DNA of 64,000 nucleotides, from IMG/VR virus record IMGVR_UViG_3300000301_000012, positions 1 to 64,000 of that record; one strand, written 5' to 3'. The position numbers were made by a program, and so were the translations under genes. The notes beneath the pieces were generated by a model, which saw nothing but the letters and a program-made list of their open reading frames with translations, was not told the origin of the DNA and made no database searches. The stretch is from a virus. This document shows, piece by piece, positions 2,022 through 12,277 of this stretch; within the stretch, counting starts at the first letter, position 1, and each line of letters begins with the position of its first letter.

Positions 2022-2840
2022 TTACTTTTTATAATTTTGCCCAATCTCTAAACAATCATATATAAAATTATCCAAAATTTCTCTAGCATATTCACTTCTA
2101 ACCTTCGACTTTTTTAATTCTTTTTCGGTTCCATATTTCTTTAAAAATAACTGATAAAAAGATTCTAATTGCTCCATAAAATAATCTCTAAAAGTTTTGG
2201 CTTTATCCAATTCAACAGGCAAAGTTTTCAATTCTCTAAGAAAATCAATATAATTATTAGTAACTTTTAAAGAATATTCAAAATCATTTGAGCTATAATA
2301 ACGTTTTAAAAAATCATAAAGTCGAATAATGTGAACTAATTGTTTTGGGTCATATCCATATTTCTCAATAGTTTCTTTCTTTCCTTCCGTCGGTTTGCTA
2401 AAAAGTTTAACTTTACTTAGCGCCATTCCCCTAGAAACATTTGCAAGAGTTAAAGGGCTTCTATTAGCAATTTTATCTCTCTTTTTTAAAAGATTAAAAA
2501 CGGGTTCTGTAAATTTAGGATTATACATATAATAAGGAGTATAAAGAATCTCCAAGAAATTAATATTTCCTTTATAAAAAGAATTACATATTAATCTAAT
2601 ATCTTGAATTAGATTAAGTCCGCCACTCTCATTATCTTTCTCTTTTGAAATCTTTTTCTTATCGAGATACAACTCGCGCTTTGTAGGGAGAATAATAGTC
2701 TTTACATCTACATCACTTTGTTCAGTTTCAATTCCATAGTTTTGGGAGCCATAAAGACCCATATAAACAAAAGGATGGCTATCTTTATAAATATCTTTAT
2801 AAAATAAGCCCATCTCATTTAAAATATTTGTAACCTCCAT
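2022..2840 (-). CDS. Pol-beta-fold nucleotidyltransferase, RlaP-like
   Basis: The translation has GSQNYGIETEQSDVDVK, the GS...D.D motif of the predicted-nucleotidyltransferase (RNA-repair-associated RlaP) family. Stop is TAA. This is the first gene of the AT-rich part. Confidence 0.65.
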   Translation of the reverse strand: MEVTNILNEMGLFYKDIYKDSHPFVYMGLYGSQNYGIETEQSDVDVKTIILPTKRELYLDKKKISKEKDNESGGLNLIQDIRLICNSFYKGNINFLEILYTPYYMYNPKFTEPVFNLLKKRDKIANRSPLTLANVSRGMALSKVKLFSKPTEGKKETIEKYGYDPKQLVHIIRLYDFLKRYYSSNDFEYSLKVTNNYIDFLRELKTLPVELDKAKTFRDYFMEQLESFYQLFLKKYGTEKELKKSKVRSEYAREILDNFIYDCLEIGQNYKK

Positions 2841-3222: not shown

Positions 3223-3335
3223 TAATGTCATCCCATCAGACATTTATTAAGGCGCAGTAACGTTACGCCACCCTATTTAAATTTTAGAGATTAGTAAAAA
3301 TAGCTTCGCCACGTAAAGGCTCTCTAATGAAGCCG

Positions 3336-3421
3336 CGCCAGAGAGAGGATTCGAACCTCCAAGCCATTTCTGACCGGCACTTTTCAAGAGTGCTGCTCTC
3401 ACCATACTGAGCGACTCTGGC
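3336..3421 (-). tRNA. tRNA-Ser(UGA)
   Basis: Acceptor GCCAGAG/CTCTGGC. Anticodon stem GCACT/AGTGC with loop CUUGAAA. Long variable arm, T-loop TTCGAAT, no encoded CCA. Confidence 0.85.
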
Positions 3422-3429
3422 ATATAAAA

Positions 3430-3504
3430 TGGTACCCACACCCAGAATCGAACTGAGATAGCGGCCTTAGAAGGACCGAGTTCTATCCGTTGAACTATAT
3501 GGGC
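3430..3504 (-). tRNA. tRNA-Arg(UCU)
   Basis: Acceptor GCCCATA/TGTGGGT. Anticodon stem CGGTC/GGCCG with loop CUUCUAA. T-arm CTCAG-TTCGATT-CTGGG, encoded CCA. Confidence 0.85.
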
Positions 3505-3511
3505 ATATAAC

Positions 3512-3598
3512 TAGACATAGTGAAGGAATCGAACCCTCTCAAGTAAAATTTTACAGATTTTCTTTTTAACCAAAAAATTTTTGCTGTTACTATGTCTA
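3512..3598 (-). ncRNA. tRNA-like RNA (GUA anticodon-like loop, canonical T-arm, aberrant D region); member of the ACAGCAAUU-box family
   Basis: A 9-bp terminal stem TAGACATAG/CTATGTCTA is followed by the box TAACAGCAA and the hairpin AAAAT-CUGUAAA-ATTTT. T-arm is GAGGG-TTCGATT-CCTTC. No normal D-arm is present. Confidence 0.45.
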
Positions 3599-3599
3599 T

Positions 3600-3695
3600 T
3601 GGCGCAACCGAGTAGACTCGAACTACCACATCAGATTTCTCCGATTACTCTCAACTTAGCAGGTTGATTCCTTACCCAATTAGGATTACGGCTGC
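3600..3695 (-). tRNA. tRNA-Ser(GCU)
   Basis: Acceptor GCAGCCG/CGGTTGC. Anticodon stem TCAAC/GTTGA with loop CUGCUAA. Long variable arm, T-loop TTCGAGT, encoded CCA. Confidence 0.85.
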
Positions 3696-3702
3696 ATAAA
3701 CT

Positions 3703-3766
3703 AGGCGCACTAACATCATCTACAAATTTATGGCGCAGATTGTTAATAGAATTGCAGTAAGCGCCT
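3703..3766 (-). ncRNA. acceptor-stem-like hairpin spacer with conserved box (family member)
   Basis: Terminal stem AGGCGC(T)/(A)GCGCCT, with the box TTACTGCAATT directly after the 5' arm on the minus strand. Confidence 0.35.
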
Positions 3767-3793
3767 TTTAGATTTATTGGACTTAATTTCAAC

Positions 3794-3867
3794 TGGCAGC
3801 GGTAGATGGTTACGCTCCACCTCCAAAGGTGTCAAAGACCTTTGTACTACTATTATACGATACCGCC
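3794..3867 (-). tRNA. tRNA-Gln(UUG)
   Basis: Acceptor GGCGGTA/TACCGCT (G1-U72) with discriminator G. Anticodon stem AAGGT/ACCTT with loop CUUUGAC. Unusual T-loop AGCGTAA, encoded CCA. Confidence 0.75.
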
Positions 3868-3870
3868 ATA

Positions 3871-3947
3871 TGGACCAGCAGACGAGATTTGAACTCGCAA
3901 CATCCTACTTGGAAGGCAGGTGCTCTAGCCAACTGAACTACTGCTGG
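3871..3947 (-). tRNA. tRNA-Gly(UCC)
   Basis: Acceptor CCAGCAG/CTGCTGG. Anticodon stem CCTGC/GTAGG with loop CUUCCAA. T-arm GCGAG-TTCAAAT-CTCGT, encoded CCA. Confidence 0.8.
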
Positions 3948-3951
3948 ATAT

Positions 3952-4091
3952 TGGTACTAGCGGGTGGAATCGAACCACCGGCAACAGGTTTTGGTGAGTT
4001 AAAAAGGTCTTGCACCTTCATCTTTTTAAAGGTTTTACTTTTAAACTATTAACCCATAAGACCTGCCCCATCACCACTTGGGTACGCTAGT
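3952..4091 (-). tRNA. interrupted tRNA; becomes a perfect 76-nt tRNA-Ile(UAU)-type cloverleaf if the 64-nt insert is removed
   Basis: Acceptor ACTAGCG/CGCTAGT, D-arm CCCA-AGTGGTGA-TGGG, anticodon stem CAGGT/ACCTG, T-arm GGTGG-TTCGATT-CCACC, then A-CCA. The loop halves CUUAU and AA are separated by 3992-4055. Confidence 0.6.
3992..4055 (-). ncRNA. tRNA-shaped insert lacking an anticodon arm, nested in an anticodon loop
   Basis: Reads GGGTTAA-TA-GTTT-AAAAGTA-AAAC-(12 nt)-GAAGG-TGCAAGA-CCTTT-TTAACTC-A-CCA. It has a 7-bp acceptor stem, D-arm, T-arm, discriminator and CCA. Confidence 0.5.
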
Positions 4092-4099
4092 ATATAGAC

Positions 4100-4159
4100 A
4101 AGACACCTTTGTTTCACAAATTGGCCATTTGTTGCAAGAAAAATTGCTGTTAGTGTCTT
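4100..4159 (-). ncRNA. acceptor-stem-like hairpin spacer with conserved box (family member)
   Basis: Terminal stem AAGACAC/GTGTCTT, then box TAACAGCAATT. Inner hairpins are GCAA-TTTTTC-TTGC and ACAAA-TGGCCAA-TTTGT. Confidence 0.4.
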
Positions 4160-4161
4160 AA

Positions 4162-4236
4162 TGGTTGTGACAGAAAGAATCGAACTTTCATGACGGCGTT
4201 ATCAGCACCGCATACTAACCATTGTATTATGTCACA
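4162..4236 (-). tRNA. tRNA-Ile(GAU)
   Basis: Acceptor TGTGACA/TGTCACA. Anticodon stem CGGTG/CGCCG with loop CUGAUAA. T-arm GAAAG-TTCGATT-CTTTC, A-CCA. Confidence 0.85.
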
Positions 4237-4239
4237 ATA

Positions 4240-4313
4240 TGGAGGCCAACCTCAGAATCAAACTGAGAACGAGAGGTTACAAAGCTCTTGTTTTATCATT
4301 AAACTAGTCGGCC
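4240..4313 (-). tRNA. tRNA-Thr(UGU)
   Basis: Acceptor GGCCGAC/GTTGGCC, D-arm GTTT-AATGATA-AAAC, loop UUUGUAA (one C-C mismatch closes the anticodon stem). T-arm CTCAG-TTTGATT-CTGAG, encoded CCA. Confidence 0.75.
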
Positions 4314-4318
4314 ATAAC

Positions 4319-4398
4319 TAGACGCTATTAACTATTAAATTAAATATATAGGGTTATATTTAGACCAAGATATTTAAATAAATTGCCGTAAGCGTCTA
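4319..4398 (-). ncRNA. acceptor-stem-like hairpin spacer with conserved box (family member)
   Basis: Terminal stem TAGACGCT/AGCGTCTA, with the box TTACGGCAATT after the 5' arm on the minus strand. Confidence 0.35.
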
Positions 4399-4409
4399 AT
4401 AAAAATTTC

Positions 4410-4486
4410 AAAGCACAATTAAGTAATATTTATCTTCTTGTCACAAAGTATCTTAAACTTAAAGTTCAAATTGCTGAATGTGCTTT
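4410..4486 (-). ncRNA. acceptor-stem-like hairpin spacer with conserved box (family member)
   Basis: Terminal stem AAAGCACA/TGTGCTTT, followed by the box TTCAGCAATT. Confidence 0.35.
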
Positions 4487-4488
4487 AT

Positions 4489-4564
4489 TGGTGCGCCAGG
4501 CGGTACTCGAAACCGCGGTCCCTTGATTAAAAGTCAAGTGCTTTACCAACTAAGCTACTGGCAC
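4489..4564 (-). tRNA. tRNA-Lys(UUU)
   Basis: Acceptor GTGCCAG/CTGGCGC. Anticodon stem CTTGA/TCAAG with loop CUUUUAA. T-arm GCGGT-TTCGAGT-ACCGC, A-CCA. Confidence 0.85.
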
Positions 4565-4616
4565 AAAATGCGTGTTTTACTTCCCGCCGGAAGATAAATA
4601 TATTTCCCAATCCTAT

Positions 4617-5054
4617 TTAGTTCTCTACGTTAAGCTTCATATTCTCATAAATATCTTTAAACTTCATATCCTCATAAATATCTACAATATTATGAGAATC
4701 TTCCTCTCGTACCCTAGCTACTCGTTCACGTTCCTCCTGATCCATTTCCACTTCCATCAAATTGAAAAAATGTTCCATAAATCGGTGAAGAGCCTTAGTC
4801 CTATCCTTCTCATACTTCAAGGAAGCTCGACGAGCCGCCATAATACGACCGATTTCCTCGTTAAAAACATCACCAGGCGCGCACTTAGCAACACCAACAT
4901 ACTTCTTCTTTAGCTTCAATACTTCGTACAATACAACAGGATTAAAGAGGTAAGGATTTTTAGCTCTCTTCAAAACAAGCTTATATACATCCTTATCACA
5001 ATTGTCAATAGTTGCCTTAACGATACCTGCTTCCTTGTCTACAAAGTACTTCAT
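4617..5054 (-). CDS. hypothetical protein embedded in the tRNA array
   Basis: 145-aa ORF with AAAGGAGTTTAAATT before the ATG and a TAA stop. Confidence 0.6.
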   Translation of the reverse strand: MKYFVDKEAGIVKATIDNCDKDVYKLVLKRAKNPYLFNPVVLYEVLKLKKKYVGVAKCAPGDVFNEEIGRIMAARRASLKYEKDRTKALHRFMEHFFNLMEVEMDQEERERVARVREEDSHNIVDIYEDMKFKDIYENMKLNVEN

Positions 5055-5139
5055 AATTTAAACTCCTTTTCTTTTTTTAAGTTTGTATAACTATTATACT
5101 TATTTTTTGTAGAACTTTCAAATTTTTTCTATCAGATGC

Positions 5140-5222
5140 TGGTGCGTTTGACAGGACTCGAACCTGCAAGCCGAAGCAACAGAACCTAAATCTGTCGAGT
5201 TTACCAATTTCTCCACAAACGC
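5140..5222 (-). tRNA. tRNA-Leu(UAG)
   Basis: Acceptor GCGTTTG/CAAACGC. Anticodon stem ACAGA/TCTGT with loop UUUAGGU. Long variable arm TGCTTCGGCT, T-loop TTCGAGT, A-CCA. Confidence 0.85.
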
Positions 5223-5564
5223 ATATTAAGTGCCTAGCTACCTCGTAAAACTAGGCGGGCTAGTGCTTCTCACCCGTAGGCATTACCCTTACCTTATCGG
5301 TTTACATCCACACTATATCACCACTATTATTTAATGGGTAATTCGCAGCGAGGTTTTTAACGATAATCTTATATTTTCTGGACAACATAAAATTGCGCTA
5401 TTTATTCTTCCAAATTAGCCCTAAAAAGTTTCATCTTAATATGCTTGTTAGGAATCTGCGCCCGTTTTGTTATTCATAGCTTTACTTTTAGTTATAAGTT
5501 CCTAGGTTTTATAACTAAAAGTTACCAATATTCCGAATCCCACGGAATAATATAAGATTATCTT
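5223..5564 (-). ncRNA. unassigned structured non-coding block (about 340 nt)
   Basis: No ORF on either strand. A 13-bp long-range pairing joins GATAATCTTATAT (5549-5561) to ATATAAGATTATC (5362-5374). A 13-bp hairpin spans about 5483-5525. Further pairings are ATTACCC/GGGTAAT and GCCTAG/CTAGGC. Confidence 0.4.
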
Positions 5565-5641
5565 TGGTAGTCACTAACAGACTCGAACTGTTGACCTCCT
5601 CGGTGTAAACGAGGCGTTCTAACCAACTGAACTAAGCGACT
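5565..5641 (-). tRNA. tRNA-Val(UAC)
   Basis: Acceptor AGTCGCT/AGTGACT. Anticodon stem CCTCG/CGAGG with loop UUUACAC. T-arm AACAG-TTCGAGT-CTGTT, A-CCA. Confidence 0.85.
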
Positions 5642-5647
5642 ATATAA

Positions 5648-5676
5648 GTGACTAATTATTTTAATTTGCTAGTCAC
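5648..5676 (-). ncRNA. short hairpin spacer with conserved box remnant (family member)
   Basis: Stem GTGACTA/TAGTCAC with a 15-nt loop that begins GCAAATT on the minus strand. Confidence 0.3.
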
Positions 5677-5746
5677 CAACAAATAGATGTTTGGGACACA
5701 CACAGTGGAGGGCACGGTCAGATTCGAACTGACGACACGCTGGTTA

Positions 5747-6415
5747 TGGCGTCAACTATGAGATTTGAACTCATATCTTTTCCCATTCTATATCAGAGTA
5801 TTTTTGAATATCTTTTCTCTTTGACGGTAAATTATACTTTTTACACCATTTACGAACAGCATTATCTGAAACTTTAAACATTTTTCCAATTGTAGTAAAC
5901 GGAGTATTTCTTATTAAGGATTTTAATTCTTCTCTACTTATTATATTTTTTTCTCTTAAACATTTCTAACATAACCCTGTTTTATTATTTGCAATTTCTT
6001 TTTTACAAGAAGAACAATAATATTGATGTTTTTTTGGATTTTTTAATTCTTCTGCTATATTTTTGTCATAAATTCTTTTTTGCTCAAGATATTCTTTAGT
6101 ATAAAAACCATCATGAACTTCTCTATGACAATTTGCACATAATAAAATACATTTCTAAATTTCTTGTAAATCTTCTTCCAAATTATGACAAATTCCTTTA
6201 GAAGAAATTCCGTACTCTTTTTCTTCAGGTCTTATATGATGAAATTCTAATGCACTTTTGCTTCTATTATAGCCACAAATATTACATTTATCACCACAAA
6301 CCCTTATTAAATTTTCTTTTCTTCTTCGTCTAAAATCAGAAGTTGCCTAACTACTCATAAATTTCACCATCAAACAATAGAATACAAAGAAAAATATTTC
6401 TTATACTAAGCTGAC
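5747..6415 (-). mobile_element. tRNA-shaped shell carrying an HNH endonuclease gene, nested in an anticodon loop
   Basis: The 5' end reads GTCAGCT-TA-GTAT-AAGAA-ATAT and the 3' end ATGAG-TTCAAAT-CTCAT-AGTTGAC-G-CCA. The acceptor stem has 7 bp including one G-U. The ORF replaces the anticodon arm. None of the ACGG...CCGTGCYAA group I core seen in the other three introns is present. Confidence 0.5.
5771..6358 (-). CDS. HNH homing endonuclease (3 in-frame TAG)
   Basis: ATG at 6358 and TGA at 5773-5771. The translation has CGDKCNICGY...EFHHI...CANCHREVH. TAG falls in the context GLC-TAG-KC. Not in the ORF track because TAG breaks it. Confidence 0.8.
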
Positions 6416-6451
6416 ACAGCCAGCTGCTCTGACCAACTGAGCTACGCACCC

Positions 6452-6977
6452 ATATAATGCCCTGGTTGCCAATCCTTCTCTGGTACTCAGACCTCTGGAG
6501 CGGCCGGGCCAGCCGCAAGAGTTTCTTTAATAAGGGAAACTACATAAAGACCTCCCCATCTTTCGTTAGGGACACGCTGAGGTTTAAGACCTCCCCCGTC
6601 TGTCGTTAGGGGTCACGCCGAGATTTTCAGGCACGAGGTACTCAGTACACACCCCGCTATTACGAGCGCCCGATGATGGACGCACTTAGTTTTTTCTCCG
6701 CAGAGAGGATATACTTTAACCCGAACTAGTTCTAGGCCTTTTTACTTCTTTACGCACATAAAAGACCACATAAACAACGCGCCATTTTACGAATTATTTC
6801 CACAGTTTGGGAGCCATACAAAAATAGTAACGAGGGCTTCGTCAGAAAGTTCTTATGCGACAAGAACTTACAATGAACGCTTTGAGTTTTTTCCTCGGAG
6901 TAAACCATCAACTAAATTTCTCGTATACAGAAACTTAATCTATTTTACAATCCTAGAAAAACGTTCCAAAGATTTAA
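6452..6977 (-). ncRNA. large structured non-coding RNA candidate (about 525 nt; ROOL/GOLLD-like context, class unconfirmed)
   Basis: No ORF, and visibly GC-richer than its flanks. It has many hairpins (AAGTTCTT/AAGAACTT, GCGGC/GCCGC, GTTTC/GAAAC). The module CCC(C)TAACGANAGAYGGGG(G)AGGTCTT is duplicated. It sits flush between two tRNA-type ends. Confidence 0.55.
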
Positions 6978-7509
6978 TGGTGGGCCATCTTGGTATCGAA
7001 CCAAGCGAGTCACAATGACAGCGGCTTTTGGAGATAGAATTTAGATTTGAACTAAAAAGTTGCAAGTATTAAATCCTTGGTTATTGGAATTTGGGATAGT
7101 TCTTAAAACTATTCTTGAAAGATTTCCAGATTTACGAATCTCTTCAACGGGAATTACAAAAAGATTCTTCATATCATCAGCACAAAATAATAAATCTACT
7201 GGATGATTTAGTAAATTATCATAAACTTGTCCCTTTGTTCCGCCTTTGTTTACCAATGAAATCTCCTTATTTTTACTAGCTGTAAATTTACATTGTACTG
7301 TTTGAAAAATATCATCTTTTTCTACAACTAAATCATACCATTGTGTATCATTAATTGGTAAACTAACAGTATAACCATTGGAACCAAAATATGCGATAGC
7401 AAGACTTAATCCCGCTCTTCCTTTATCCCTATTATTTAATAATTGCATAACCCTCCTCCATTAGGATTCTACCACAGGCCGCCCCGTCTCCTTAACGGAA
7501 TACTGACCC
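6978..7509 (-). mobile_element. tRNA-shaped shell carrying a PD-(D/E)XK endonuclease gene (free-standing)
   Basis: The 5' end reads GGGTCAG-TA-TTCC-GTTAA-GGAG and the 3' end CTTGG-TTCGATA-CCAAG-ATGGCCC-A-CCA, with 6 of 7 acceptor pairs. The architecture matches 5747-6415. Confidence 0.4.
7041..7448 (-). CDS. PD-(D/E)XK homing-endonuclease-like protein (I-Ssp6803I-like family)
   Basis: 135 aa with GGAGGAGGG before the ATG. The translation KGRAGLSLAIAYFGSNGYTVSLPINDTQWYDLVVEKDDIFQTVQCKF matches the D...(D/E)xK pattern of the small PD-(D/E)XK intron endonucleases. Confidence 0.7.
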   Translation of the reverse strand: MQLLNNRDKGRAGLSLAIAYFGSNGYTVSLPINDTQWYDLVVEKDDIFQTVQCKFTASKNKEISLVNKGGTKGQVYDNLLNHPVDLLFCADDMKNLFVIPVEEIRKSGNLSRIVLRTIPNSNNQGFNTCNFLVQI

Positions 7510-7596
7510 ATATAATGGCGGTTGGAGCTTATTTTAATTCGACGTCCGCCAACTCGAATGAAGGTTGAGTTATTGTCATTATACCTACAATATGAC

Positions 7597-7672
7597 TGGT
7601 CACGCCATCGGGAATCGAACCCGAATTACGGGATTGAAAGCCCCGTTTCCTTACCGTTTAGAAGATGGCGCG
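7597..7672 (-). tRNA. tRNA-Glu(UUC)
   Basis: Acceptor CGCGCCA/TGGCGTG. Anticodon stem CGGGG/TCCCG with loop CUUUCAA. T-arm TCGGG-TTCGATT-CCCGA, A-CCA. Confidence 0.85.
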
Positions 7673-7906
7673 ATAGAAATAGGAGTGACCGCCCTCCTAT
7701 TGGGTCTGTTGTTCCACTCCTATCGGTAGTTTTTAAATGGTGTTACCGACACCGATTTGCGTCAGGAGGAGTATCCTCCCCAATGGAATTTGTTGATACA
7801 ATCATAGAACCATCTCCTTCCAATAAACGCTTTTTAAGACTTAGCGTGGTACGCATTATTAAGAGGCGTGCTAAGTTCATTTCTACAAGAGGAACTTCCC
7901 ACTTGG
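7673..7906 (-). ncRNA. unassigned structured spacer immediately 3' of the suppressor tRNA
   Basis: No credible ORF. Hairpins are AGGAG-TGACCGCC-CTCCT, GGAGGA-GTA-TCCTCC, CGGTA...TACCG and CTTAGC...GCTAAG enclosing GCGT-GGT-ACGC. Confidence 0.35.
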
Positions 7907-7982
7907 TGGCAGCGGTTCTCAGAATCGAACTGAGTCCATCGCTTTTAGAGAGCGAGGCGCTAAACCGTTACGCTAAACCGCA
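7907..7982 (-). tRNA. amber suppressor tRNA(CUA), Gln-like identity features
   Basis: Anticodon stem TCGCT/AGCGA with loop CUCUAAA; the anticodon is complementary to plus-strand tag at 7946-7948. D-arm GCGT-AACGGTTTA-GCGC and T-arm CTCAG-TTCGATT-CTGAG. Acceptor TGCGGTT/AACCGCT has a U1-U72 mismatch, G2-C71 and discriminator G. CCA is followed by a second CCA. Confidence 0.85.
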
Positions 7983-8014
7983 TCATTCAAGTTTTTGAAT
8001 GGAACTTTAACCAT

Positions 8015-8089
8015 TGGGTGCAGAGGAAGGATTCGAACCTTCGATCTCCGACTCATGAGGACGGTGAGATACCACTTCTCTACTCTGCA
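8015..8089 (-). tRNA. tRNA-Met(CAU) (elongator Met or Ile2; not resolvable by eye)
   Basis: Acceptor TGCAGAG/CTCTGCA, loop CUCAUGA, T-arm GAAGG-TTCGAAT-CCTTC, C-CCA. The anticodon stem has one U-U mismatch. Confidence 0.75.
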
Positions 8090-8097
8090 ATATAGAC

Positions 8098-8162
8098 AAG
8101 GCACATAAGTAACAATAATTTCTCACCCAAGAAAAGCTGTTATTAATTGCTGTTTGCGCCTT
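8098..8162 (-). ncRNA. acceptor-stem-like hairpin spacer with conserved box (family member)
   Basis: Terminal stem AAGGCGCA/TGTGCCTT (one G-U pair), followed by the box AACAGCAATT. Confidence 0.35.
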
Positions 8163-8214
8163 TCTTTATCTTACATAAATATTATATAAGATTTTTAAAA
8201 ACTTTTCAAATTTC

Positions 8215-8337
8215 AAGATACCGTTAGAATAATTATTGCCTTACCATTTAGGCGATTTCTAAAATGATTAGAAAGTAAGAATCGAACTTACAATAGATAA
8301 TTTCCAAAAAATAATTATTGGTTGCTGTAGGTATCTT
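8215..8337 (-). ncRNA. circularly permuted, capped tRNA-like RNA on a basal stem (YrlA/Y-RNA-like architecture)
   Basis: The minus strand reads: basal AAGATACC, box TACAGCAA, then ATTAT, CTATT, T-arm GTAAG-TTCGATT-CTTAC. The acceptor TTTCTAA-TCATT-TTAGAAA is closed by a loop. Then come TC, D-arm GCCT-AAATGGTA-AGGC, A, ATAAT and basal GGTATCTT. Confidence 0.55.
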
Positions 8338-8341
8338 TAAC

Positions 8342-8415
8342 TGGCAGAAAACGTCGGTGCTGCCCCGCTATTCCACCTCCCAAAGATGGCGTGTTACTGT
8401 TACACTACGTTCTCT
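8342..8415 (-). tRNA. tRNA-Pro(UGG)
   Basis: Acceptor (A)GAGAAC(G)/(C)GTTTTC(T). Anticodon stem CCATC/GGTGG with loop UUUGGGA. The T-arm is weak and non-canonical (loop GGCAGCA). It abuts tRNA-Ala. Confidence 0.7.
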
Positions 8416-8491
8416 TGGTGGAACTAAGGGGATTCGAACCCCTAACCCTCTGCGTGCAAAGCAGATGCGCTTCCAATTACGCTATAGCCCC
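8416..8491 (-). tRNA. tRNA-Ala(UGC)
   Basis: Acceptor GGGGCTA/TAGTTCC carries the G3-U70 alanine identity pair. Loop UUUGCAC, T-arm AGGGG-TTCGAAT-CCCCT, A-CCA. Confidence 0.9.
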
Positions 8492-8640
8492 ACGTTTAGC
8501 GGCCGTTGCCATCCGCCATTCGTATCCTCTTATGCAGCAACGAACCGAGGAATTATAGGTTTTTATTTGTAAGCTACCTACAAACTTACTGGTAGGAGTG
8601 GCGGGACTCGAACCCGCACGACCACAAGCCAGCTGATTTT

Positions 8641-9387
8641 CATACTACTCTATGTCACCATAGCCGCATTACTGCGTTGTAGTCTGGACTATGTCTTCAC
8701 CATATCTCTCAACTTAGGTGGTTGGTATATAGTCTCTACACATTTATTTGGTGCAGTTCTTTCCACGATAGGAATCTGTTAAAGCGTGACAATTTGGACA
8801 TAATAATTCATAATTTTCTATACTATTATTATGTCTATTGCCATCTTTATGATGTAACTCTAATGGAATTGGATTGCCAAGCCATTCGGTTAAACCGCAA
8901 TGTTCACACTTATGTTCTTTATACCCTTCTTCTAACAACTTTATTCTAACTTTGTTTGATTGAATATCTTTGCTATTTTCAAGATATTGAACTAATGTCA
9001 TTTTTTCTTTAACTTTAGAATAACCTTTTCCACTTTGATTTCCATCATACTTTAAGCCTAATCTCTCTAATACGCTATTAATAGTTTTAGGATTACATCC
9101 TAATTCTCTTGCCATATAAGCTTTAGATCTGTTCTCAGAAATCCATCGTTCAATTTCTGCCTTACGCTCTAAAATATCTGTTCTCATAAGTATCACTCCT
9201 TTTTTTTCTTTCTACTTATAAGTAGAAAAGGAACACACTTATTACAGAATTTTGATGCGTAATCCAAAATTTAGCACGGCGTTCTGTGTTTGCCTTCGCC
9301 GTTTAGCCAACTTCTACTTTCACAATTTCTTGTGAAGCACTCTCTATCCAAAAGATAGCACTTCTTTTTAGGAAGTGAAACACATTA
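8641..9387 (-). mobile_element. group I intron with HNH homing-endonuclease ORF
   Basis: The 5' splice site follows U and the 3' splice site follows G. The core element GGCTAAACGGCG...ACGCCGTGCTAAATT resembles the P4-P6/P7 region of phage group I introns such as T4 td. The insertion site is the classical tRNA-Leu(UAA) position. Confidence 0.7.
8744..9187 (-). CDS. HNH homing endonuclease (intron-encoded)
   Basis: The translation has CEHCGL...LELHHKDGNRHNNSIENYELLCPNCHA. AGGAGTG lies 6 nt before the ATG at 9187. Stop is TAA. Confidence 0.85.
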   Translation of the reverse strand: MRTDILERKAEIERWISENRSKAYMARELGCNPKTINSVLERLGLKYDGNQSGKGYSKVKEKMTLVQYLENSKDIQSNKVRIKLLEEGYKEHKCEHCGLTEWLGNPIPLELHHKDGNRHNNSIENYELLCPNCHALTDSYRGKNCTK

Positions 9388-9587
9388 AAGTCAGCAGCGT
9401 ATACCGATTTCGCCACACTCCCATAGCGTCCCTCTCGTTTCATAGCTCATTGAGCCGATTTTGCAGGCTTGGGACTGCCGATGGCACGATTAACGCTAAA
9501 TGCCGAACTGAGAGAGTGAAAGGAAAGGAAAAATCTCTCTCATTCAACATTAATATTATATCAAAATTTTTAGTTTATTTCAAATTT

Positions 9588-9722
9588 TTAATACTCATCA
9601 TCTAAAAAGTAGAATGGATCATCCTGCTCTTCATTAATCCAGAAAGCGCCGCCTGAAAAGCCATATTCGCCAAAAAAATCATCATACTGAATATCATCGA
9701 ATCCATCAAAGTAATCTCCCAT
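9588..9722 (-). CDS. small acidic hypothetical protein (44 aa)
   Basis: AAAGGAGC lies before the ATG at 9722 and the stop is TAA. The translation begins MGDYFDGFDDIQYDDFFGEYG. Confidence 0.35.
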   Translation of the reverse strand: MGDYFDGFDDIQYDDFFGEYGFSGGAFWINEEQDDPFYFLDDEY

Positions 9723-9768
9723 TTTTAAGCTCCTTTCTTAACTTTCTGTATATATTATACAGAATTTT

Positions 9769-9906
9769 TTATTCATTTTCAAATTTTTTCTTGTGTTTTT
9801 CTTTTCGAGAATATTTCTTTTTATTAGGTATAATCTTCGTAGAAGGATTGAGGCCACTCCAATCCTTACGAATCTTTTTAAAAGTTTCGTAAGTTTTATT
9901 CTCCAT
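9769..9906 (-). CDS. small basic hypothetical protein (45 aa)
   Basis: GGAAGGTGAG lies before the ATG at 9906 and the stop is TAA. Confidence 0.35.
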   Translation of the reverse strand: MENKTYETFKKIRKDWSGLNPSTKIIPNKKKYSRKEKHKKKFENE

Positions 9907-9951
9907 TTCTCTCACCTTCCTTTAATATTATATATAAAAATTAAAGAAAAC

Positions 9952-10269
9952 TCAAATTTTTTCCATCTCTTTTTTATCTTGAGTAATTGCTTCCGCACGT
10001 GTATTAAGAAGTTTAATGAACTGACTTACTTCTTTTGACTTCTTAAAGATGGCGACTGGATATTTATGACCTTTGCCGATAATTTCCGCACCCAATTCAT
10101 CGCGTGCCATACGAAGATATTGTGCATAGCTAAGACCCATTACTCGTGCAGGAATAATATTATAACTTCCTGTTGTATATTTTAAGTTGAAATTGTCAAA
10201 GTTGGCTCTAATTGTATAGTGTTCATTTTGGATAGGATACTCATCAAGATAAAAATATTCTTTTTTCAT
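9952..10269 (-). CDS. hypothetical protein
   Basis: Track ORF trimmed to the ATG that follows GGGAGGAG. Stop is TGA. Confidence 0.55.
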   Translation of the reverse strand: MKKEYFYLDEYPIQNEHYTIRANFDNFNLKYTTGSYNIIPARVMGLSYAQYLRMARDELGAEIIGKGHKYPVAIFKKSKEVSQFIKLLNTRAEAITQDKKEMEKI

Positions 10270-10574
10270 AGAGTCATCTCCTCCCAAAGTTCTTCAATTT
10301 CAATTTCTTCTTTTTGACTTAGTACACATAAGTCGCCATAATTCTCAAGTCCTCTAAACATTTTAAGAACATCTTCAAAAGGAGGAAGTTCATCACGACT
10401 AAATGTTTTCTTGGGTTTATTCTGCGCCGGCTGGTAATTTGGAATAATATACTTTTTTACTGTAGTAGGAGAGGGAGAACCACCCATAGCTCTACTAACA
10501 CCAGCATAAGTTCCAATTTTTAAATAAAGTTCATTAAGTTCAATTATTTGCTCTTGAGTAATTTTACTTGCCAT
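10266..10574 (-). CDS. hypothetical protein (possible HTH)
   Basis: Track ORF trimmed to the ATG that follows AAAGGTGAG. Stop is TGA. Confidence 0.55.
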   Translation of the reverse strand: MASKITQEQIIELNELYLKIGTYAGVSRAMGGSPSPTTVKKYIIPNYQPAQNKPKKTFSRDELPPFEDVLKMFRGLENYGDLCVLSQKEEIEIEELWEEMTL

Positions 10575-10622
10575 TTTTCTCACCTTTCAATAAATATTAT
10601 ATAAAAAATTTAAAAGAAAATC

Positions 10623-10648
10623 AAAAAAGGAGCTTCCGAAGAAGCTCC
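10623..10648 (-). terminator. rho-independent terminator (minus strand)
   Basis: Stem GGAGCTTC-CGAA-GAAGCTCC is followed by TTTTTT on the minus strand, just after the TAA of the vWA gene. Confidence 0.7.
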
Positions 10649-10654
10649 CTTATA

Positions 10655-12130
10655 TTAAACTTTACCAATCCAAACGCAATCATACATAGGATTATTAAGA
10701 GTTTCAATCATAACATCCCAACCAGTCTTACCGTTCAACGCAGCAGTCAGTTCTTTAAAAGAAGAAGGAGAACCGCCACTTACATGGATAAGATCAGGAC
10801 TATTACCCAAGAAAGTATTGCTACGAGCGTAAACATTCCAAAGAACTAGCTTAGGAAGATTAAAACCGTATTTAGCAAATTTCTTCCTCTGAATTTCTAC
10901 GAAATCATCATTAATATTATCTCTTTGAGAAATCCAGTCAATTTCCATATCAGAAATAACGATAATAGCTTTAGGCATTTCATCGTTAGGAATCTTATAG
11001 TCAATACCAGTTCTCAATACTAAATTGAAAGCTTCATTTAAATCAGTATTATATCCAAAATCCGTCCCTTCGGCCTTTACTATTTTTTGATAAATGTCGT
11101 CACTCTCTTTAAGAGTAATAAAATGAGGATTATCAGTAAAAGTCATGTAAAGATTATGGAAATAACCTTTATTTCTTTCAGCAAAATAAACTGCCAAACT
11201 AGTAGACATTGCCATAGGACGTCCAGACATAGAACCAGATACATCAGCCATAACAATATAGTTATTTTCACCTTCGACATAATTAGGAAGTCCATTCCAC
11301 TGAGCCTGGAGTAAATCTCTAGCTTGCATATTACAGCTACTAATTCTATCTGATTTTTCCTTAAGGTCGTAAGGATAAAGGACAGAACTATTGACTTTAG
11401 ATTCGCCAGTCTTTAAACCTGCAACATATTCATTAAATCTATCTTCATCATGTCTACGGAAAGCATCGGAATAATTCTTCATAGCATAAGAAGGAACATT
11501 ATCATAAATAATTTCATCCCAATTATTCGCAGACATATCTCTCTCAACAATTCGAATAGCATGACGCAACCTAGACAGAGCTTTACGATAAGTTCTGCTA
11601 GTCATACCCAACTCACCAATGGCGCGCCGTGCAAGATGAATAGTCTCAGGAGAAGAAGCATTTTCAGAAGGCATCCACTTACCCAGAAGACTTACAGAAT
11701 TGCCCTTAGCGCAATTAACTAGATCTTCTTTAAAGGTTTCCTTAATCAAATCCCACATTACCTTCTCGCATTTTGTTCCAGTAAGAACAAAAAGAGAATC
11801 CCAACGATTAAAATGGGGAATCAACTTAATATTATTCTCTACATATTTAGGCGCAATATTTGCCAAAGTTTTTAGACAAATACGGAAAGTTCTGCGCTCA
11901 CCTAAACCGCCACGAATGTTACCGGCATAAAATAACATCTTAGTAGTCAATTCAGGATTTTCTCTAAAAGAATTTGTAAACATTTCACTAATGTCTTTCA
12001 CACTTCGACTTCTCAAAGCACCGATGACACCAAAAAGAGATAAAACATTACTATCCAAACAGGAATAAGCGTTCATTCCATTTTCAGTAAACTTATCGGT
12101 AGTATTCTTAGCGGCTTGTGCAAAATTCAT
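10655..12130 (-). CDS. DUF2828-type protein with C-terminal vWA domain (Ro60/TROVE-like architecture)
   Basis: 491 aa. The N-terminal region reads TENGMNAY...LFYAGNIRGGLGERRTFR. The C-terminal vWA domain has the MIDAS motif DVSGSMSG. The TROVE-plus-vWA order matches Ro60. Confidence 0.75.
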   Translation of the reverse strand: MNFAQAAKNTTDKFTENGMNAYSCLDSNVLSLFGVIGALRSRSVKDISEMFTNSFRENPELTTKMLFYAGNIRGGLGERRTFRICLKTLANIAPKYVENNIKLIPHFNRWDSLFVLTGTKCEKVMWDLIKETFKEDLVNCAKGNSVSLLGKWMPSENASSPETIHLARRAIGELGMTSRTYRKALSRLRHAIRIVERDMSANNWDEIIYDNVPSYAMKNYSDAFRRHDEDRFNEYVAGLKTGESKVNSSVLYPYDLKEKSDRISSCNMQARDLLQAQWNGLPNYVEGENNYIVMADVSGSMSGRPMAMSTSLAVYFAERNKGYFHNLYMTFTDNPHFITLKESDDIYQKIVKAEGTDFGYNTDLNEAFNLVLRTGIDYKIPNDEMPKAIIVISDMEIDWISQRDNINDDFVEIQRKKFAKYGFNLPKLVLWNVYARSNTFLGNSPDLIHVSGGSPSSFKELTAALNGKTGWDVMIETLNNPMYDCVWIGKV

Positions 12131-12166
12131 TTGACATTTCTCCTTTTACTCAATAAAGTAAAAGCT

Positions 12167-12277
12167 AGACGCAATAGCTCCAAAGAAGGGACTCGAACCC
12201 TTAAATACTGAATTTAACGTTCAGAGCTTTTTCCTTTTAAGCTACTTCGGAAATCTCTCGCTTCGCTGTTCGCGTCT
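12167..12277 (-). ncRNA. stem-enclosed tRNA-like RNA directly upstream of the Ro60-like gene
   Basis: Basal pairing AGACGC (12277-12272 complement) with GCGTCT (12172-12167 complement). The box-like GAACAGCG follows the 5' arm. It encloses the cloverleaf at 12178-12251. Confidence 0.45.
12178..12251 (-). tRNA. tRNA-like cloverleaf with UUA in the anticodon position and G33 (probably not a decoding tRNA)
   Basis: Acceptor TCCGAAG/CTTTGGA and D-arm GCTT-AAAAGGAAA-AAGC. Anticodon stem CTGAA/TTCAG with loop CGUUAAA. T-arm AAGGG-TTCGAGT-CCCTT, no CCA. Confidence 0.5.

What the first reader, a model, noticed from the sequence alone, without database searches (positions are those of the whole stretch)
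6978..7509. Third tRNA-shaped shell, free-standing, carrying a PD-(D/E)XK (I-Ssp6803I-like) endonuclease
The layout matches 5747-6415. It starts with an acceptor strand, TA and a short D-arm (TTCC-GTTAA-GGAG). About 40 nt containing a ribosome-binding site follows, then a 135-aa PD-(D/E)XK ORF. It ends with T-arm CTTGG-TTCGATA-CCAAG, acceptor strand ATGGCCC, A and CCA; 6 of 7 acceptor pairs form. I-Ssp6803I-type enzymes are known from a cyanobacterial tRNA-fMet group I intron. Here I find no host tRNA exons around the element and no group I core inside it. The flanks are a hairpin ending in CCA (7516-7596) and the 525-nt structured block.
Basis: partly seen in the sequence, partly recalled or inferred. 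Interest (0 to 1): 0.7.

Follow-up and report, generated by a model that had tools for sequence, protein, structure and literature searches.

The report
tRNA-shaped intron inside phage tRNA-Tyr
The "free-standing tRNA-shaped shell" is a phage tyrosine tRNA gene split in its anticodon loop by a 445-base mobile insert that has no ribozyme core but mimics a tRNA's acceptor stem and T-arm, so it may be cut out by ordinary tRNA-trimming enzymes, which would be a new kind of intron.

Summary
The outer "shell" is not free-standing. A 445-nt insert (7473-7029) splits its anticodon loop between U35 and A36.

The insert carries the PDDEXK_5 (I-Ssp6803I-type) endonuclease ORF and has no group I core. It does have its own nested tRNA mimic: a 7-bp acceptor stem, a 5-bp T-stem with loop TTCAAAT that overlaps the ORF end, one unpaired base, then CCA. 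The mimic's two ends coincide exactly with the two exon junctions.

Twenty distinct designs from metagenomes keep this architecture with strong covariation. The insert's CCA is present only where the host tRNA's CCA is encoded. Most homologous endonuclease genes are instead free-standing next to intact tRNA-Tyr genes and lack the mimic. The same window holds two more mimic introns (tRNA-Asn with an HNH ORF, and an ORF-less 64-nt one).

Best reading, inferred and not shown: RNase P-type and tRNA-3'-end-type cleavages excise the insert, and an RNA ligase reseals the loop. I found no published description of this.

The parts
6978..7509 (-). Whole interrupted class II tRNA-Tyr(GUA) gene: host exons plus insert.
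   Evidence: ARAGORN calls tRNA-Tyr(gta), 87 nt, after in-silico removal of 7029-7473. The spliced sequence is closest to uninterrupted Tyr(gta) genes.
7474..7509 (-). Exon 1 (36 nt): acceptor 5' strand GGGTCAG, D region, anticodon stem 5' strand GCGGC, loop bases C32 U33 G34 U35.
   Evidence: Sequence read. Compensatory changes against L001 in acceptor pair 2:71 and anticodon-stem pair 31:39.
7029..7473 (-). 445-nt insert (candidate intron) between U35 and A36. It starts with G and ends with T-CCA.
   Evidence: These are the only boundaries that restore the loop CTGTAAA. An unbiased scan of the window recovers exactly this interval.
7467..7473 (-). Mimic acceptor stem, 5' strand GGTAGAA.
   Evidence: Pairs 7/7 with TTCTATC at 7039-7033. 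All 7 pairs covary across 20 designs.
7451..7459 (-). Ribosome-binding site GGAGGAGGG for the endonuclease ORF.
   Evidence: Read directly from the sequence.
7041..7448 (-). 135-aa PD-(D/E)XK homing-endonuclease ORF (Pfam PDDEXK_5, I-Ssp6803I family).
   Evidence: Pfam E=5e-13. About 700 homologues, all annotated PF11645. PDB 2OST is the top hit.
7040..7056 (-). Mimic T-arm: TTTAG-TTCAAAT-CTAAA. It overlaps the last ORF codons and the stop codon.
   Evidence: A T-arm-like hairpin sits at the ORF 3' end in 22/23 inserted loci against 5/93 others. Three of the 5 stem pairs covary.
7029..7039 (-). Mimic acceptor 3' strand TTCTATC (7039-7033), unpaired T (7032, discriminator-like) and CCA (7031-7029).
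   Evidence: The insert's CCA is present only where the host tRNA's 3' CCA is encoded.
6978..7028 (-). Exon 2 (51 nt): A36 A37 A38, anticodon stem 3' strand GCCGC, long variable arm, T-arm CTTGG-TTCGATA-CCAAG, ATGGCCC, A73, CCA.
   Evidence: T-stem and variable-arm compensatory changes against L001 and L016.
5747..6415 (-). Sister element: a 669-nt tRNA-mimic intron in tRNA-Asn(GUU). Sequence GTCAGCT ... ATGAG-TTCAAAT-CTCAT-AGTTGAC-G-CCA. It carries an HNH ORF with recoded TAG codons.
   Evidence: Syntenic relatives hold the uninterrupted tRNA-Asn.
3992..4055 (-). Sister element: an ORF-less 64-nt tRNA-like intron in the anticodon loop of a tRNA. The host reads as Ile(UAU) if excision is mimic-exact.
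   Evidence: Rfam tRNA hit of 40.9 bits at 3995-4055. Also.

Best explanation
SHOWN. 6978-7509 (minus strand) is a phage class II tRNA-Tyr(GUA) gene. A 445-nt insert interrupts its anticodon loop between U35 and A36. The insert encodes a PDDEXK_5 homing endonuclease and has no ribozyme core. It is built as a tRNA mimic: a 7-bp acceptor-like stem formed by its first 7 nt and a 3' segment, a 5-bp/7-nt T-arm directly upstream of that segment, one unpaired base, then CCA. The first and last bases of the mimic are exactly the first and last bases of the insert. This architecture is conserved with covariation in many phages. It occurs with other endonuclease genes, or with none, in other tRNAs.

INFERRED.
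(1) The endonuclease cuts insert-free tRNA-Tyr genes in the anticodon-loop region and drives homing.
(2) In the precursor RNA the mimic is handled like a tRNA. RNase P cuts 5' of its G+1, which is the 5' splice site. A tRNA 3'-end endonuclease cuts after its discriminator, or after its CCA where CCA is encoded, which is the 3' splice site. This releases the endonuclease mRNA with tRNA-like protected ends. It leaves the two tRNA halves held together by the cloverleaf with a 3'-OH/5'-phosphate nick in the anticodon loop.
(3) An RNA ligase, from the host or from elsewhere in the phage genome, seals the nick and restores loop CUGUAAA.

My confidence by layer: anatomy about 0.9; excision by tRNA end-processing enzymes about 0.5; religation to a working tRNA about 0.4.
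For: Host tRNA:
- ARAGORN calls Tyr(gta) after exact removal of the insert.
- The spliced sequence folds as a cloverleaf with z = -2.8.
- Compensatory changes against L001 and L016 occur in the acceptor, anticodon, T and variable arms.
- The top 15 most similar long tRNAs are all uninterrupted Tyr(gta).
- L035 has a homologous tRNA with an intact CTGTAAA loop.

No ribozyme: there is no Rfam intron or ribozyme match, and only 37 nt are non-coding.

Mimic:
- 23 non-identical loci (20 designs) share the acceptor + T-arm + N (+CCA) module in the exact register of the junctions, at two insertion sites, 34/35 and 35/36.
- All 17 loci found by ARAGORN splicing alone, without any mimic criterion, have the mimic.
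- 95% of cells are paired against 67.6% in shuffles. Fourteen of 17 pairs show double changes, including all 7 mimic acceptor pairs. Slid registers give 30-47%.
- The T-arm is present in 22/23 inserted copies against 5/93 non-inserted copies.
- The insert's CCA tracks the host tRNA's encoded CCA: 13 loci with CCA in both and 10 with it in neither, no exceptions.

Generality:
- A whole-window scan finds exactly three such introns, in Tyr, Asn and Ile. Related loci add Glu, Lys and Gly, several of them ORF-less at 50-158 nt.
- The ORF-less one scores as a tRNA in Rfam.
- Syntenic relatives carry the uninterrupted tRNA-Asn, which fixes that intron's borders at the mimic's G+1 and CCA.

Function retained: none of 25 inserted loci has a second intact tRNA-Tyr in the fetched flanks.

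Contrast cases: insertions of the same endonuclease family without a mimic (L055-58, L075) also fail to restore the loop.

Circumstantial: an RlaP-family RNA-repair nucleotidyltransferase lies next to the tRNA array. RlaP genes are typically linked to RNA ligases (PMC12776372).

That RNase P and RNase Z accept acceptor/T-arm minihelices and tmRNA-like substrates is established knowledge. I cite it from memory.
Against: - There is no RNA-level evidence: no transcript ends and no spliced product.
- I found no RNA ligase or RtcB in the 64-kb window. Of the 30 ORFs I listed, ten were scanned with Pfam; the other twenty I only judged by eye from their translations, mostly as replication or structural genes; ORFs under about 150 aa were not scanned. 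The one ligase-domain protein looks like a DNA ligase.
- I know of no general bacterial enzyme that cuts precisely after an encoded CCA. Only particular RNase Z/BN activities do, from memory.
- The mimic is AU-rich and thermodynamically weak on its own (z = -0.3), so the case rests on covariation.
- The loci in the covariation alignment were selected with pairing thresholds, which inflates the percentage paired.
- The CCA correlation rests on few independent lineages: the CCA-less designs form one clade.
- Some hosts of mimic-bearing inserts have decayed (L065). The mimic can therefore persist without a working host tRNA.
- The window and L001 share a near-identical insert in diverged exons. 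Exon covariation may therefore predate insertion.
Confidence: 0.5

Rival explanations
1. Dead-gene reading. The endonuclease cassette homed into the dispensable phage tRNA-Tyr gene and inactivated it. The tRNA mimic exists only to let RNase P and 3' processing release and stabilise the endonuclease mRNA from the polycistronic tRNA transcript. The tRNA halves are never rejoined.
For: - Phage tRNA genes are often dispensable (general knowledge).
- Decayed hosts exist: L053, L055-58, L062 and L065. In L065 the mimic is intact while the host loop and 3' half are degenerate.
- No ligase was found in the window.
- The near-identical insert in diverged exons (window against L001) fits recent invasion, so intact exons need not mean selection.
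Against: - mRNA release does not require the mimic's ends to coincide to the nucleotide with a break that restores a 7-nt CUGUAAA loop. Yet this holds in all 20 designs, at two different insertion sites and in both CCA modes.
- ORF-less 50-66-nt mimic introns sit in otherwise perfect tRNAs (Ile, Glu, Lys), where there is no mRNA to release.
- No second intact tRNA-Tyr lies in the flanks of 25 inserted loci.
- Insertions without the mimic are the ones with destroyed loops.
Confidence: 0.27
2. The insert is removed by some other route. Candidates are an unrecognised self-splicing or self-cleaving fold within the insert, a trans-acting ribozyme, or a bulge-helix-bulge-type protein endonuclease followed by RtcB ligation.
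For: - RtcB is common in bacteria. An RlaP-like gene, often linked to RtcB operons, is in the window.
- A weak RAGATH-1 hammerhead hit lies inside the ORF: 24 bits against a gathering score of 56, E=0.09.
- Structured non-coding RNAs flank the gene: the 525-nt block and a hairpin.
Against: - No Rfam intron or ribozyme family reaches significance.
- Only 37 nt are non-coding, and the rest is constrained by a conserved protein.
- The same design works with PD-(D/E)XK ORFs, HNH ORFs or no ORF. The machinery is therefore generic and reads the mimic.
- By inspection there is no two-3-nt-bulge/4-bp-helix motif. The junction is an asymmetric 4-nt/7-nt internal loop.
- The 525-nt block is found only in close relatives, not in the other mimic-intron loci.
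Confidence: 0.13
3. One reading: a free-standing tRNA-shaped shell, not a tRNA gene, that carries the endonuclease with no host exons.
For: - ARAGORN without intron search and Rfam both fail to call a tRNA here.
- The D arm is atypical.
Against: - The anticodon stem, the split CTGT|AAA loop and the class II variable arm are all present.
- ARAGORN calls Tyr(gta) after excision.
- Uninterrupted homologous tRNA-Tyr genes exist.
- A second, inner mimic accounts for the 'shell' idea.
Confidence: 0.02
4. DNA-level element: a small transposon whose 7-8-bp terminal inverted repeats are protein-binding sites rather than RNA helices.
For: The insert's ends are inverted repeats, and it carries a nuclease gene.
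Against: - The repeat sequences differ between lineages while complementarity is kept, including G-U pairs, which do not pair in DNA.
- The repeats are followed by an unpaired N-CCA and preceded by a T-arm, which is tRNA-specific geometry.
- PDDEXK_5 is a homing-endonuclease family.
Confidence: 0.02

Closest known systems
Group I intron of the cyanobacterial tRNA-fMet gene, which encodes I-Ssp6803I (and tRNA-Leu(UAA) group I introns)
   Same: - An intervening sequence in a bacterial-type tRNA anticodon loop.
- It carries an endonuclease of the same Pfam family (PDDEXK_5; PDB 2OST is the best structural relative).
- It is presumably mobile by homing into the anticodon-loop DNA.
   Different: - There is no P1-P9 catalytic core. 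Only 37 non-coding nt remain, and Rfam RF00028 is silent.
- The last base is A of CCA, not the terminal G of group I introns.
- The 5' exon ends in G34 in many relatives.
- The ends instead form a tRNA acceptor/T-arm mimic.
- A probable true group I case sits in the same window (tRNA-Leu(UAA), 8590-9422) and looks quite different.
Archaeal/eukaryal protein-spliced tRNA introns (bulge-helix-bulge, EndA/Sen + RtcB/Trl1), including homing-endonuclease-bearing archaeal introns and split tRNAs
   Same: - A ribozyme-free intron in a tRNA anticodon loop that must be cut by proteins and religated.
- Intron ends that pair to hold the halves together.
   Different: - No bulge-helix-bulge motif.
- Positions 34/35 and 35/36 rather than 37/38.
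- A bacterial-virus context in which no EndA is known.
- The recognition element appears to be a tRNA mimic, not a BHB.
tmRNA and other RNase P/RNase Z-processed tRNA mimics (mascRNA from MALAT1, plant-mitochondrial t-elements, viral tRNA-like structures)
   Same: - An acceptor stem plus T-arm plus N-CCA, with the D and anticodon arms replaced by a long insertion that can contain an ORF. This is the tmRNA topology.
- Such mimics are known to be cut out of longer transcripts by tRNA end-processing enzymes (from memory).
   Different: - Here the mimic is nested inside another tRNA's anticodon loop, so excising it would act as splicing.
- No tag reading frame and no G3-U70 alanine identity.
- ARAGORN finds no tmRNA.
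Free-standing homing endonucleases in phage tRNA clusters (T4 SegB, PMC2330249; T5-like phages)
   Same: - Most homologues of this ORF are exactly that: free-standing, typically 6-33 nt upstream of an intact tRNA-Tyr.
- A T5-like coliphage has a 36%-identical homologue 2 nt upstream of tRNA-Ser.
   Different: In the window the gene is inside the tRNA and wrapped in the mimic. Free-standing copies lack the T-arm.

Membership tests
Bacterial-type class II tRNA-Tyr(GUA) (host gene) | Cloverleaf with 7-bp acceptor stem, T-arm with TTCGA-type loop, 5-bp anticodon stem and 7-nt loop CUGUAAA. | tested here: met
   After removal of 7029-7473, ARAGORN calls tRNA-Tyr(gta), 87 nt. The MFE fold is a cloverleaf. 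One acceptor mismatch (G7 x A66) and an atypical D arm.
Bacterial-type class II tRNA-Tyr(GUA) (host gene) | Long variable arm and A73 (bacterial Tyr identity features, from memory). | tested here: met
   The variable arm TGTCATTGTGACTCG forms a hairpin, and A73 precedes CCA. The nearest relatives are uninterrupted Tyr(gta) genes.
Bacterial-type class II tRNA-Tyr(GUA) (host gene) | Produces a mature, chargeable tRNA. | not testable with these tools
   Needs RNA data or biochemistry.
Group I intron | Conserved catalytic core (P3-P9 with guanosine-binding site). | tested here: not met
   No RF00028 hit at E<=10 in 6950-7540. Only 25 + 12 nt lie outside a conserved protein-coding ORF.
Group I intron | 5' exon ends in U (G-U pair in P1) and the intron ends in G. 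| tested here: not met
   The insert ends in A (of CCA). In relatives with the 34/35 site the exon ends in G34.
PD-(D/E)XK homing endonuclease, Pfam PDDEXK_5 (I-Ssp6803I family) | Significant match to PF11645 above the curated cut-off. | tested here: met
   E=5e-13, 49.6 bits against 26.1. The precomputed Pfam annotation of the listed homologues agrees.
PD-(D/E)XK homing endonuclease, Pfam PDDEXK_5 (I-Ssp6803I family) | Conserved acidic and lysine catalytic residues. | tested here: inconclusive
   D34, D39, E43, K44, Q52 and K54 are invariant in the 15-sequence alignment, and the protein aligns to 2OST. I did not map them onto the published active site.
PD-(D/E)XK homing endonuclease, Pfam PDDEXK_5 (I-Ssp6803I family) | Cleaves the insert-free allele and promotes homing. 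| not testable with these tools
   Indirect support only. The near-identical insert sits in diverged exons. Partial tRNA-Tyr duplications break at CTGT|.
Bulge-helix-bulge (archaeal-type) tRNA intron | Two 3-nt bulges separated by a 4-bp helix at the splice sites. | tested here: not met
   By inspection of the window, L016 and L054 junctions, there is an asymmetric internal loop (4 nt on the 5' side, 7 nt on the 3' side) followed by a 7-bp helix.
tmRNA | tRNA-like domain with G3-U70, pseudoknots, and a resume codon with tag ORF. | tested here: not met
   ARAGORN finds no tmRNA in the window. The mimic's pair 3:70 is U-A here and varies elsewhere. The ORF has its own ribosome-binding site and ATG.
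RNase P / RNase Z substrate (tRNA minihelix-type) | Coaxial 7-bp acceptor + 5-bp T-stem, 7-nt T-loop, unpaired discriminator, optional CCA. | tested here: met
   The geometry is present and covaries in 20 designs. The first base is G in 17 of the 20 designs.
RNase P / RNase Z substrate (tRNA minihelix-type) | Actually cleaved at these sites. | not testable with these tools
   Needs in vitro cleavage or end mapping.

The most novel reading that the evidence does not exclude
Gut and rumen phages carry a previously undescribed class of intron: a mobile 'tRNA-within-a-tRNA'. It has no catalytic RNA and is excised because it mimics a tRNA. RNase P would define the 5' splice site and tRNA 3'-end processing the 3' splice site, with an RNA ligase resealing the anticodon loop. 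The excised mimic would double as a capped-like, stabilised mRNA for a homing endonuclease. ORF-less 50-66-nt versions would be the minimal form.
Probability: 0.4. Interest if true: 0.93.

Novelty: categorically new. Interest (0 to 1): 0.8.

Why it matters
Bacterial and phage tRNA introns are thought to be self-splicing group I (rarely group II) elements. Protein-dependent tRNA splicing is regarded as an archaeal and eukaryal trait. A ribozyme-free intron that exploits universal tRNA end-processing enzymes would matter in four ways:
- It would be a new splicing logic.
- It would give a new route by which homing endonucleases colonise essential RNA genes.
- It would be a natural precedent for the engineered tRNA-flanked RNA-release systems used in synthetic biology.
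- It would imply routine RNA ligation of anticodon loops during phage infection, linking to phage and host RNA-repair genes and to anticodon-nuclease defence.

There is also a practical consequence. tRNA finders miss these genes, so the tRNA repertoires of such phages are under-counted. In this window alone Tyr, Asn and one more are missed or mis-called.

Tried and rejected
- **Leu(CAA) or His(GUG) identity for the host.** Registers CT|..|CAAAA and CTGTG|..|AA both give ARAGORN tRNAs. I rejected them for three reasons. Relatives with the 34/35 site and no CCA allow only CTG|TAAA. The spliced sequence is closest to Tyr genes. Free-standing homologues sit next to Tyr.
- **ARAGORN's tRNA-His call for 5706-6451.** Rejected. 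Syntenic relatives have the uninterrupted Asn(GTT) with the same U73.
- **Hidden group I core or ribozyme.** Rfam at permissive thresholds shows nothing credible.
- **tmRNA.** None.
- **Bulge-helix-bulge motif.** Not present by inspection.
- **The neighbouring 525-nt block as a trans-acting partner.** It occurs only in close relatives (L001, L067/68) and not next to other mimic introns. It has no Rfam hit.
- **RNA ligase or RtcB in the window.** Not found. Flanks of the relative L183 show only a DNA-ligase-domain protein.
- **Cultured phages.** Only remote, free-standing homologues.
- **Bacterial genomes.** Only phage-like contigs binned mostly into Clostridia MAGs, so no firm host.
- **Literature.** Seven full-text searches found no description of tRNA-like introns in phage tRNAs. 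Checked papers on recoded gut phages, crAss-like phages and theta ribozymes do not mention tRNA introns. The library covers open-access papers only.
- **Deciding Ile(UAU) against Trp(CCA) for the host of the ORF-less intron** by comparison with L183. Inconclusive: 50/76 against 40/76 identities.
Full report
**Setting.** The window is part of a large phage genome. It has an array of tRNA genes on the minus strand (3335-12251), including suppressor tRNAs with anticodons CUA and UUA. Late genes are full of in-frame TAG codons, for example 35 in 58659-63395. In homologues of the ORF studied here, TAG falls at conserved glutamine positions. The closest relatives are uncultured gut and rumen phage contigs of 110-225 kb. 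Some of these contigs are binned into Clostridia MAGs.

**Observation check.** On the minus strand the region reads as follows:

5' GGGTCAG TA TTCCGTTAAGGAGACGGG GCGGC CTGT | GGTAGAA TCC TAAT GGAGGAGGG TT ATG ... (135 codons) ... AAC TTT TTA GTT CAA ATC TAA ATTCTATC T CCA | AAA GCCGC TGTCATTGTGACTCG CTTGG TTCGATA CCAAG ATGGCCC A CCA 3'

- The ORF matches Pfam PDDEXK_5 at E=5e-13. Its best solved relative is 2OST, the I-Ssp6803I structure.
- There is no room for a group I core, and Rfam finds none.

The shell also has a 5-bp anticodon stem (GCGGC/GCCGC), a split anticodon loop (CTGT ... AAA) and a class II variable-arm hairpin.
- Deleting 7473-7029 gives an 87-nt sequence that ARAGORN calls tRNA-Tyr(gta). 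It folds as a cloverleaf (z = -2.8).
- Other splice registers would give Leu(CAA) or His(GUG), but they are excluded. In relatives whose insert lies one base upstream and lacks CCA, only CTG|TAAA restores a sensible loop.
- The spliced sequence is most similar to uninterrupted tRNA-Tyr genes. The top 15 of all long tRNAs in the fetched loci are Tyr, at up to 76% identity, against at most 63% for Leu(CAA).
- L035 carries a clearly homologous tRNA with the same unusual D region, variable arm, T-stem and G7 x A66 mismatch. Its CTGTAAA loop is intact and the endonuclease gene lies immediately upstream.
- In L001 the endonuclease is 96% identical and the non-coding ends of the insert are identical, yet the exons differ with compensatory changes in every arm.

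The 'shell' is therefore a real host tRNA gene, not a free-standing element.

**The family of the endonuclease.**
- About 700 homologues exist in metagenomes.
- In most of the roughly 116 non-redundant loci examined, the gene is free-standing inside a phage tRNA array. It typically lies 6-33 nt upstream of an intact tRNA-Tyr(gta), less often just downstream.
- Some loci show partial tRNA-Tyr duplications that break exactly at CTGT| (L022/L071; also L087/88). This is the footprint expected if the enzyme cuts the anticodon-loop DNA.
- A 36%-identical homologue in a cultured T5-like coliphage lies 2 nt upstream of tRNA-Ser.
- Inserted and free-standing forms are interleaved in a rough NJ tree, so the state has changed several times.

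**The nested mimic.**
- In every locus where the gene lies inside the tRNA (23 non-identical loci, 20 designs), the insert has the same architecture:
  - Its first 7 nt pair with a 7-nt segment near its 3' end.
  - That segment is directly preceded by a 5-bp stem with a 7-nt loop of T-loop type (TTCAAAT, TTCGATT, TGCAATT and similar). The hairpin overlaps the last codons of the ORF.
  - The segment is followed by one unpaired base and then, in 13 of the 23 loci, by CCA.
- The insert begins at the first base of this acceptor-like stem. It ends at the discriminator-like base or the CCA, with no spare nucleotides.
- This holds at two different insertion sites (G34/U35 and U35/A36).
- In the window the parts are GGTAGAA (7473-7467), TTTAG-TTCAAAT-CTAAA (7056-7040), TTCTATC (7039-7033), T (7032) and CCA (7031-7029).

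**Support for the mimic.**
- On a 20-design alignment, 95% of cells pair against 67.6% after shuffling. Fourteen of 17 pairs show changes on both sides, including all seven pairs of the mimic's acceptor stem. Sliding the partners by 1-3 columns drops pairing to 30-47%.
- The loci in that alignment passed pairing thresholds, which inflates the percentage. However, all 17 loci identified without any mimic criterion (ARAGORN on spliced candidates) have the mimic.
- The T-arm-like hairpin is present in 22/23 inserted copies. It appears in only 5/93 other copies. One of those five is a missed insert (L080), one looks spurious (L073), and the other three are host or partial-tRNA T-arms.
- The protein's C-terminus changes (YLVQI* against YRVQFS...) in step with the RNA stem.
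- The insert carries CCA in all 13 loci whose host tRNA encodes its own 3' CCA. It lacks CCA in all 10 loci whose host tRNA does not. The CCA-less designs form one clade, so the number of independent contrasts is small.
- Thermodynamic folding alone does not single out the AU-rich mimic (z = -0.3).

**Generality.**
- I scanned the whole window on both strands for 'acceptor + T-arm + N (+CCA) whose exact removal yields an ARAGORN tRNA with the junction in the anticodon loop'. It returned exactly three intervals:
  - 7029-7473, in tRNA-Tyr.
  - 5747-6415, in tRNA-Asn, carrying an HNH ORF with recoded TAGs.
  - 3992-4055, a 64-nt insert with no ORF.
- The last one by itself scores 40.9 bits on Rfam's tRNA model.
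- For the Asn case, syntenic relatives (L001, L067, L068) carry the uninterrupted tRNA-Asn(GTT) with the same U73. This overturns ARAGORN's His call. It also leaves CTGT|G...CCA|TAA, the mimic's own ends, as the only possible borders.
- The same scan of related loci found mimic inserts in tRNA-Glu (66 nt and 861 nt), tRNA-Lys (50 nt) and tRNA-Gly (158 nt).
- The design is therefore independent of the ORF it carries. Whatever acts on it is probably a generic factor that reads the tRNA-like shape.
- By contrast, the fourth interrupted tRNA in the window (Leu(UAA), 8590-9422) has its insert at the classical U34/A35 site, has about 290 nt of non-coding RNA, ends in G, and gives a weak group I hit.

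**Mechanism (inferred).**
- An acceptor/T-arm minihelix with a discriminator and CCA is the recognition unit of bacterial RNase P and of tRNA 3'-end enzymes. tmRNA shows that a long insertion, even one with an ORF, is tolerated in place of the D and anticodon arms. Both statements are established knowledge that I cite from memory.
- If the mimic is treated this way, RNase P would cut between U35 and the insert's G+1. A 3'-end endonuclease would cut after the discriminator (RNase Z, in the CCA-less lineages) or after the CCA.
- The released 445-nt RNA would be an endonuclease mRNA with paired, tRNA-like ends.
- The two tRNA halves would stay annealed with a 3'-OH/5'-phosphate nick in the anticodon loop. 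That nick is the substrate type of Rnl1/Rnl2-class RNA ligases.

**Why rejoining is likely.**
- The junctions are exact in all designs.
- ORF-less mini-versions exist in otherwise perfect tRNAs.
- None of 25 inserted loci has a second tRNA-Tyr in the fetched flanks.
- Insertions of the same endonuclease family that lack the mimic (L055-58, L075) also fail to restore the loop.

**Weak points.**
- There are no RNA data.
- I found no RNA ligase in the 64-kb window. The window does hold an RlaP-family RNA-repair nucleotidyltransferase (2022-2840) beside the tRNA array. RlaP genes usually accompany RNA ligases (PMC12776372).
- Precise cutting after an encoded CCA is not a general bacterial activity.
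- L065 shows a mimic surviving in a decayed host tRNA.

The main rival is that the tRNA is simply dead and the mimic serves only to release the mRNA. I give that 0.27.

**Comparison and novelty.** The element shares its location and its endonuclease family with the Synechocystis tRNA-fMet group I intron. It fails the defining tests for group I introns, BHB introns and tmRNA (see the membership table). It resembles tmRNA, mascRNA and t-elements in how it is probably processed. I know of no case in which such a mimic is nested in a tRNA anticodon loop so that its excision amounts to splicing. Seven full-text searches and five checked papers found no description. The library covers open-access literature only.

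**Verdict.**
- The 'free-standing' interpretation is wrong.
- The underlying idea, an endonuclease gene wrapped in a tRNA-shaped RNA without a ribozyme, is right one level further in, and it is conserved and widespread.
- Anatomy confidence is about 0.9.
- Confidence in the proposed splicing mechanism is about 0.4-0.5.
- Interest is 0.8.

Noticed in passing
window 5706-6451 (-), intron 5747-6415: tRNA-Asn(GUU) interrupted between U35 and U36 by a 669-nt tRNA-mimic intron (GTCAGCT ... ATGAG-TTCAAAT-CTCAT-AGTTGAC-G-CCA). It carries an HNH endonuclease ORF with in-frame TAG codons at Cys-x-x-Cys motifs. ARAGORN mis-calls it tRNA-His. Syntenic relatives L001, L067 and L068 have the uninterrupted gene.
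   Followed up: partly
window 3952-4091 (-), intron 3992-4055: A tRNA interrupted by an ORF-less 64-nt tRNA-like intron (GGGTTAA ... GAAGG-TGCAAGA-CCTTT-TTAACTC-A-CCA). The intron alone scores 40.9 bits on Rfam tRNA. Mimic-exact removal gives Ile(UAU). A different register would give Trp(CCA). ARAGORN with intron search calls it SeC(tca). Homologous mini-introns sit in tRNA-Glu and tRNA-Lys of L015.
   Followed up: partly
window 8590-9422 (-): tRNA-Leu(UAA) with a 747-nt intron at the classical U34/A35 position. It carries an HNH ORF (8744-9196) and gives a weak Rfam group I hit (8662-8829, 20 bits, E=0.14). This is probably an ordinary group I intron. ARAGORN calls the gene Phe(gaa). The relative L183 has an uninterrupted Leu(taa).
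   Followed up: partly
window 9426-9496 (-) and 7839-7875 (-): A sub-threshold twister-P1 ribozyme hit (34 bits against a gathering score of 67, E=2e-4) abuts the 5' end of the tRNA-Leu(UAA) gene. A near-threshold abiF RNA motif hit (36.8 against 37 bits) lies between tRNA-Glu and the CUA suppressor tRNA.
   Followed up: no
window 7907-7982 (-), 12177-12251 (-), 53707-63395 (-): Suppressor tRNAs with anticodons CUA and UUA. Late and structural ORFs carry 10-35 in-frame TAG codons. TAG aligns with conserved Gln in homologues of the endonuclease in other phages, so this is TAG-to-Gln recoding. The role of the UUA tRNA is unexplained.
   Followed up: partly
window 2022-2840 (-) and 10655-12130 (-): The tRNA array is flanked by an RlaP-family (PF10127) RNA-repair nucleotidyltransferase and a DUF2828 + DUF7788 protein. 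The DUF2828+DUF7788 gene and an ATP-dependent ligase-domain gene recur in the ±10-kb flank of the relative L183; no RlaP (PF10127) hit is listed there.
   Followed up: partly
window 6455-6977 (-) and 7510-7596 (-): The 525-nt ORF-free block and the hairpin upstream of tRNA-Tyr have no Rfam match at E<=1. They are conserved only in the closest relatives (L001/L002, L067/L068). For the block, only the first 206 nt align, at 73-83%. They are not found next to mimic introns in other phages.
   Followed up: partly
window 39655-44517 (+): A PolIII-alpha-like gene appears split into two ORFs (39655-40953 and 41866-44517) by a GIY-YIG-type ORF (41192-41869). A second GIY-YIG ORF lies at 27226-27927. 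I read this from the translations only; no family search was run.
   Followed up: no
L055-L058, L075; L065; L053; L062: Informative variants:
- In L055-58 and L075 the same endonuclease family is inserted at CTG| of a class II tRNA, but with no mimic and no restoration of the loop.
- In L065 the mimic is intact but the host tRNA loop and 3' half have decayed.
- L053 and L062 have truncated hosts.
   Followed up: partly
L183 13014-13511 and 14427-14837: The close relative of the window phage has two further PDDEXK_5 genes in its tRNA array. They lie near tRNA-Phe and tRNA-Ser/Trp. The mimic scan did not call them as inserts.
   Followed up: no
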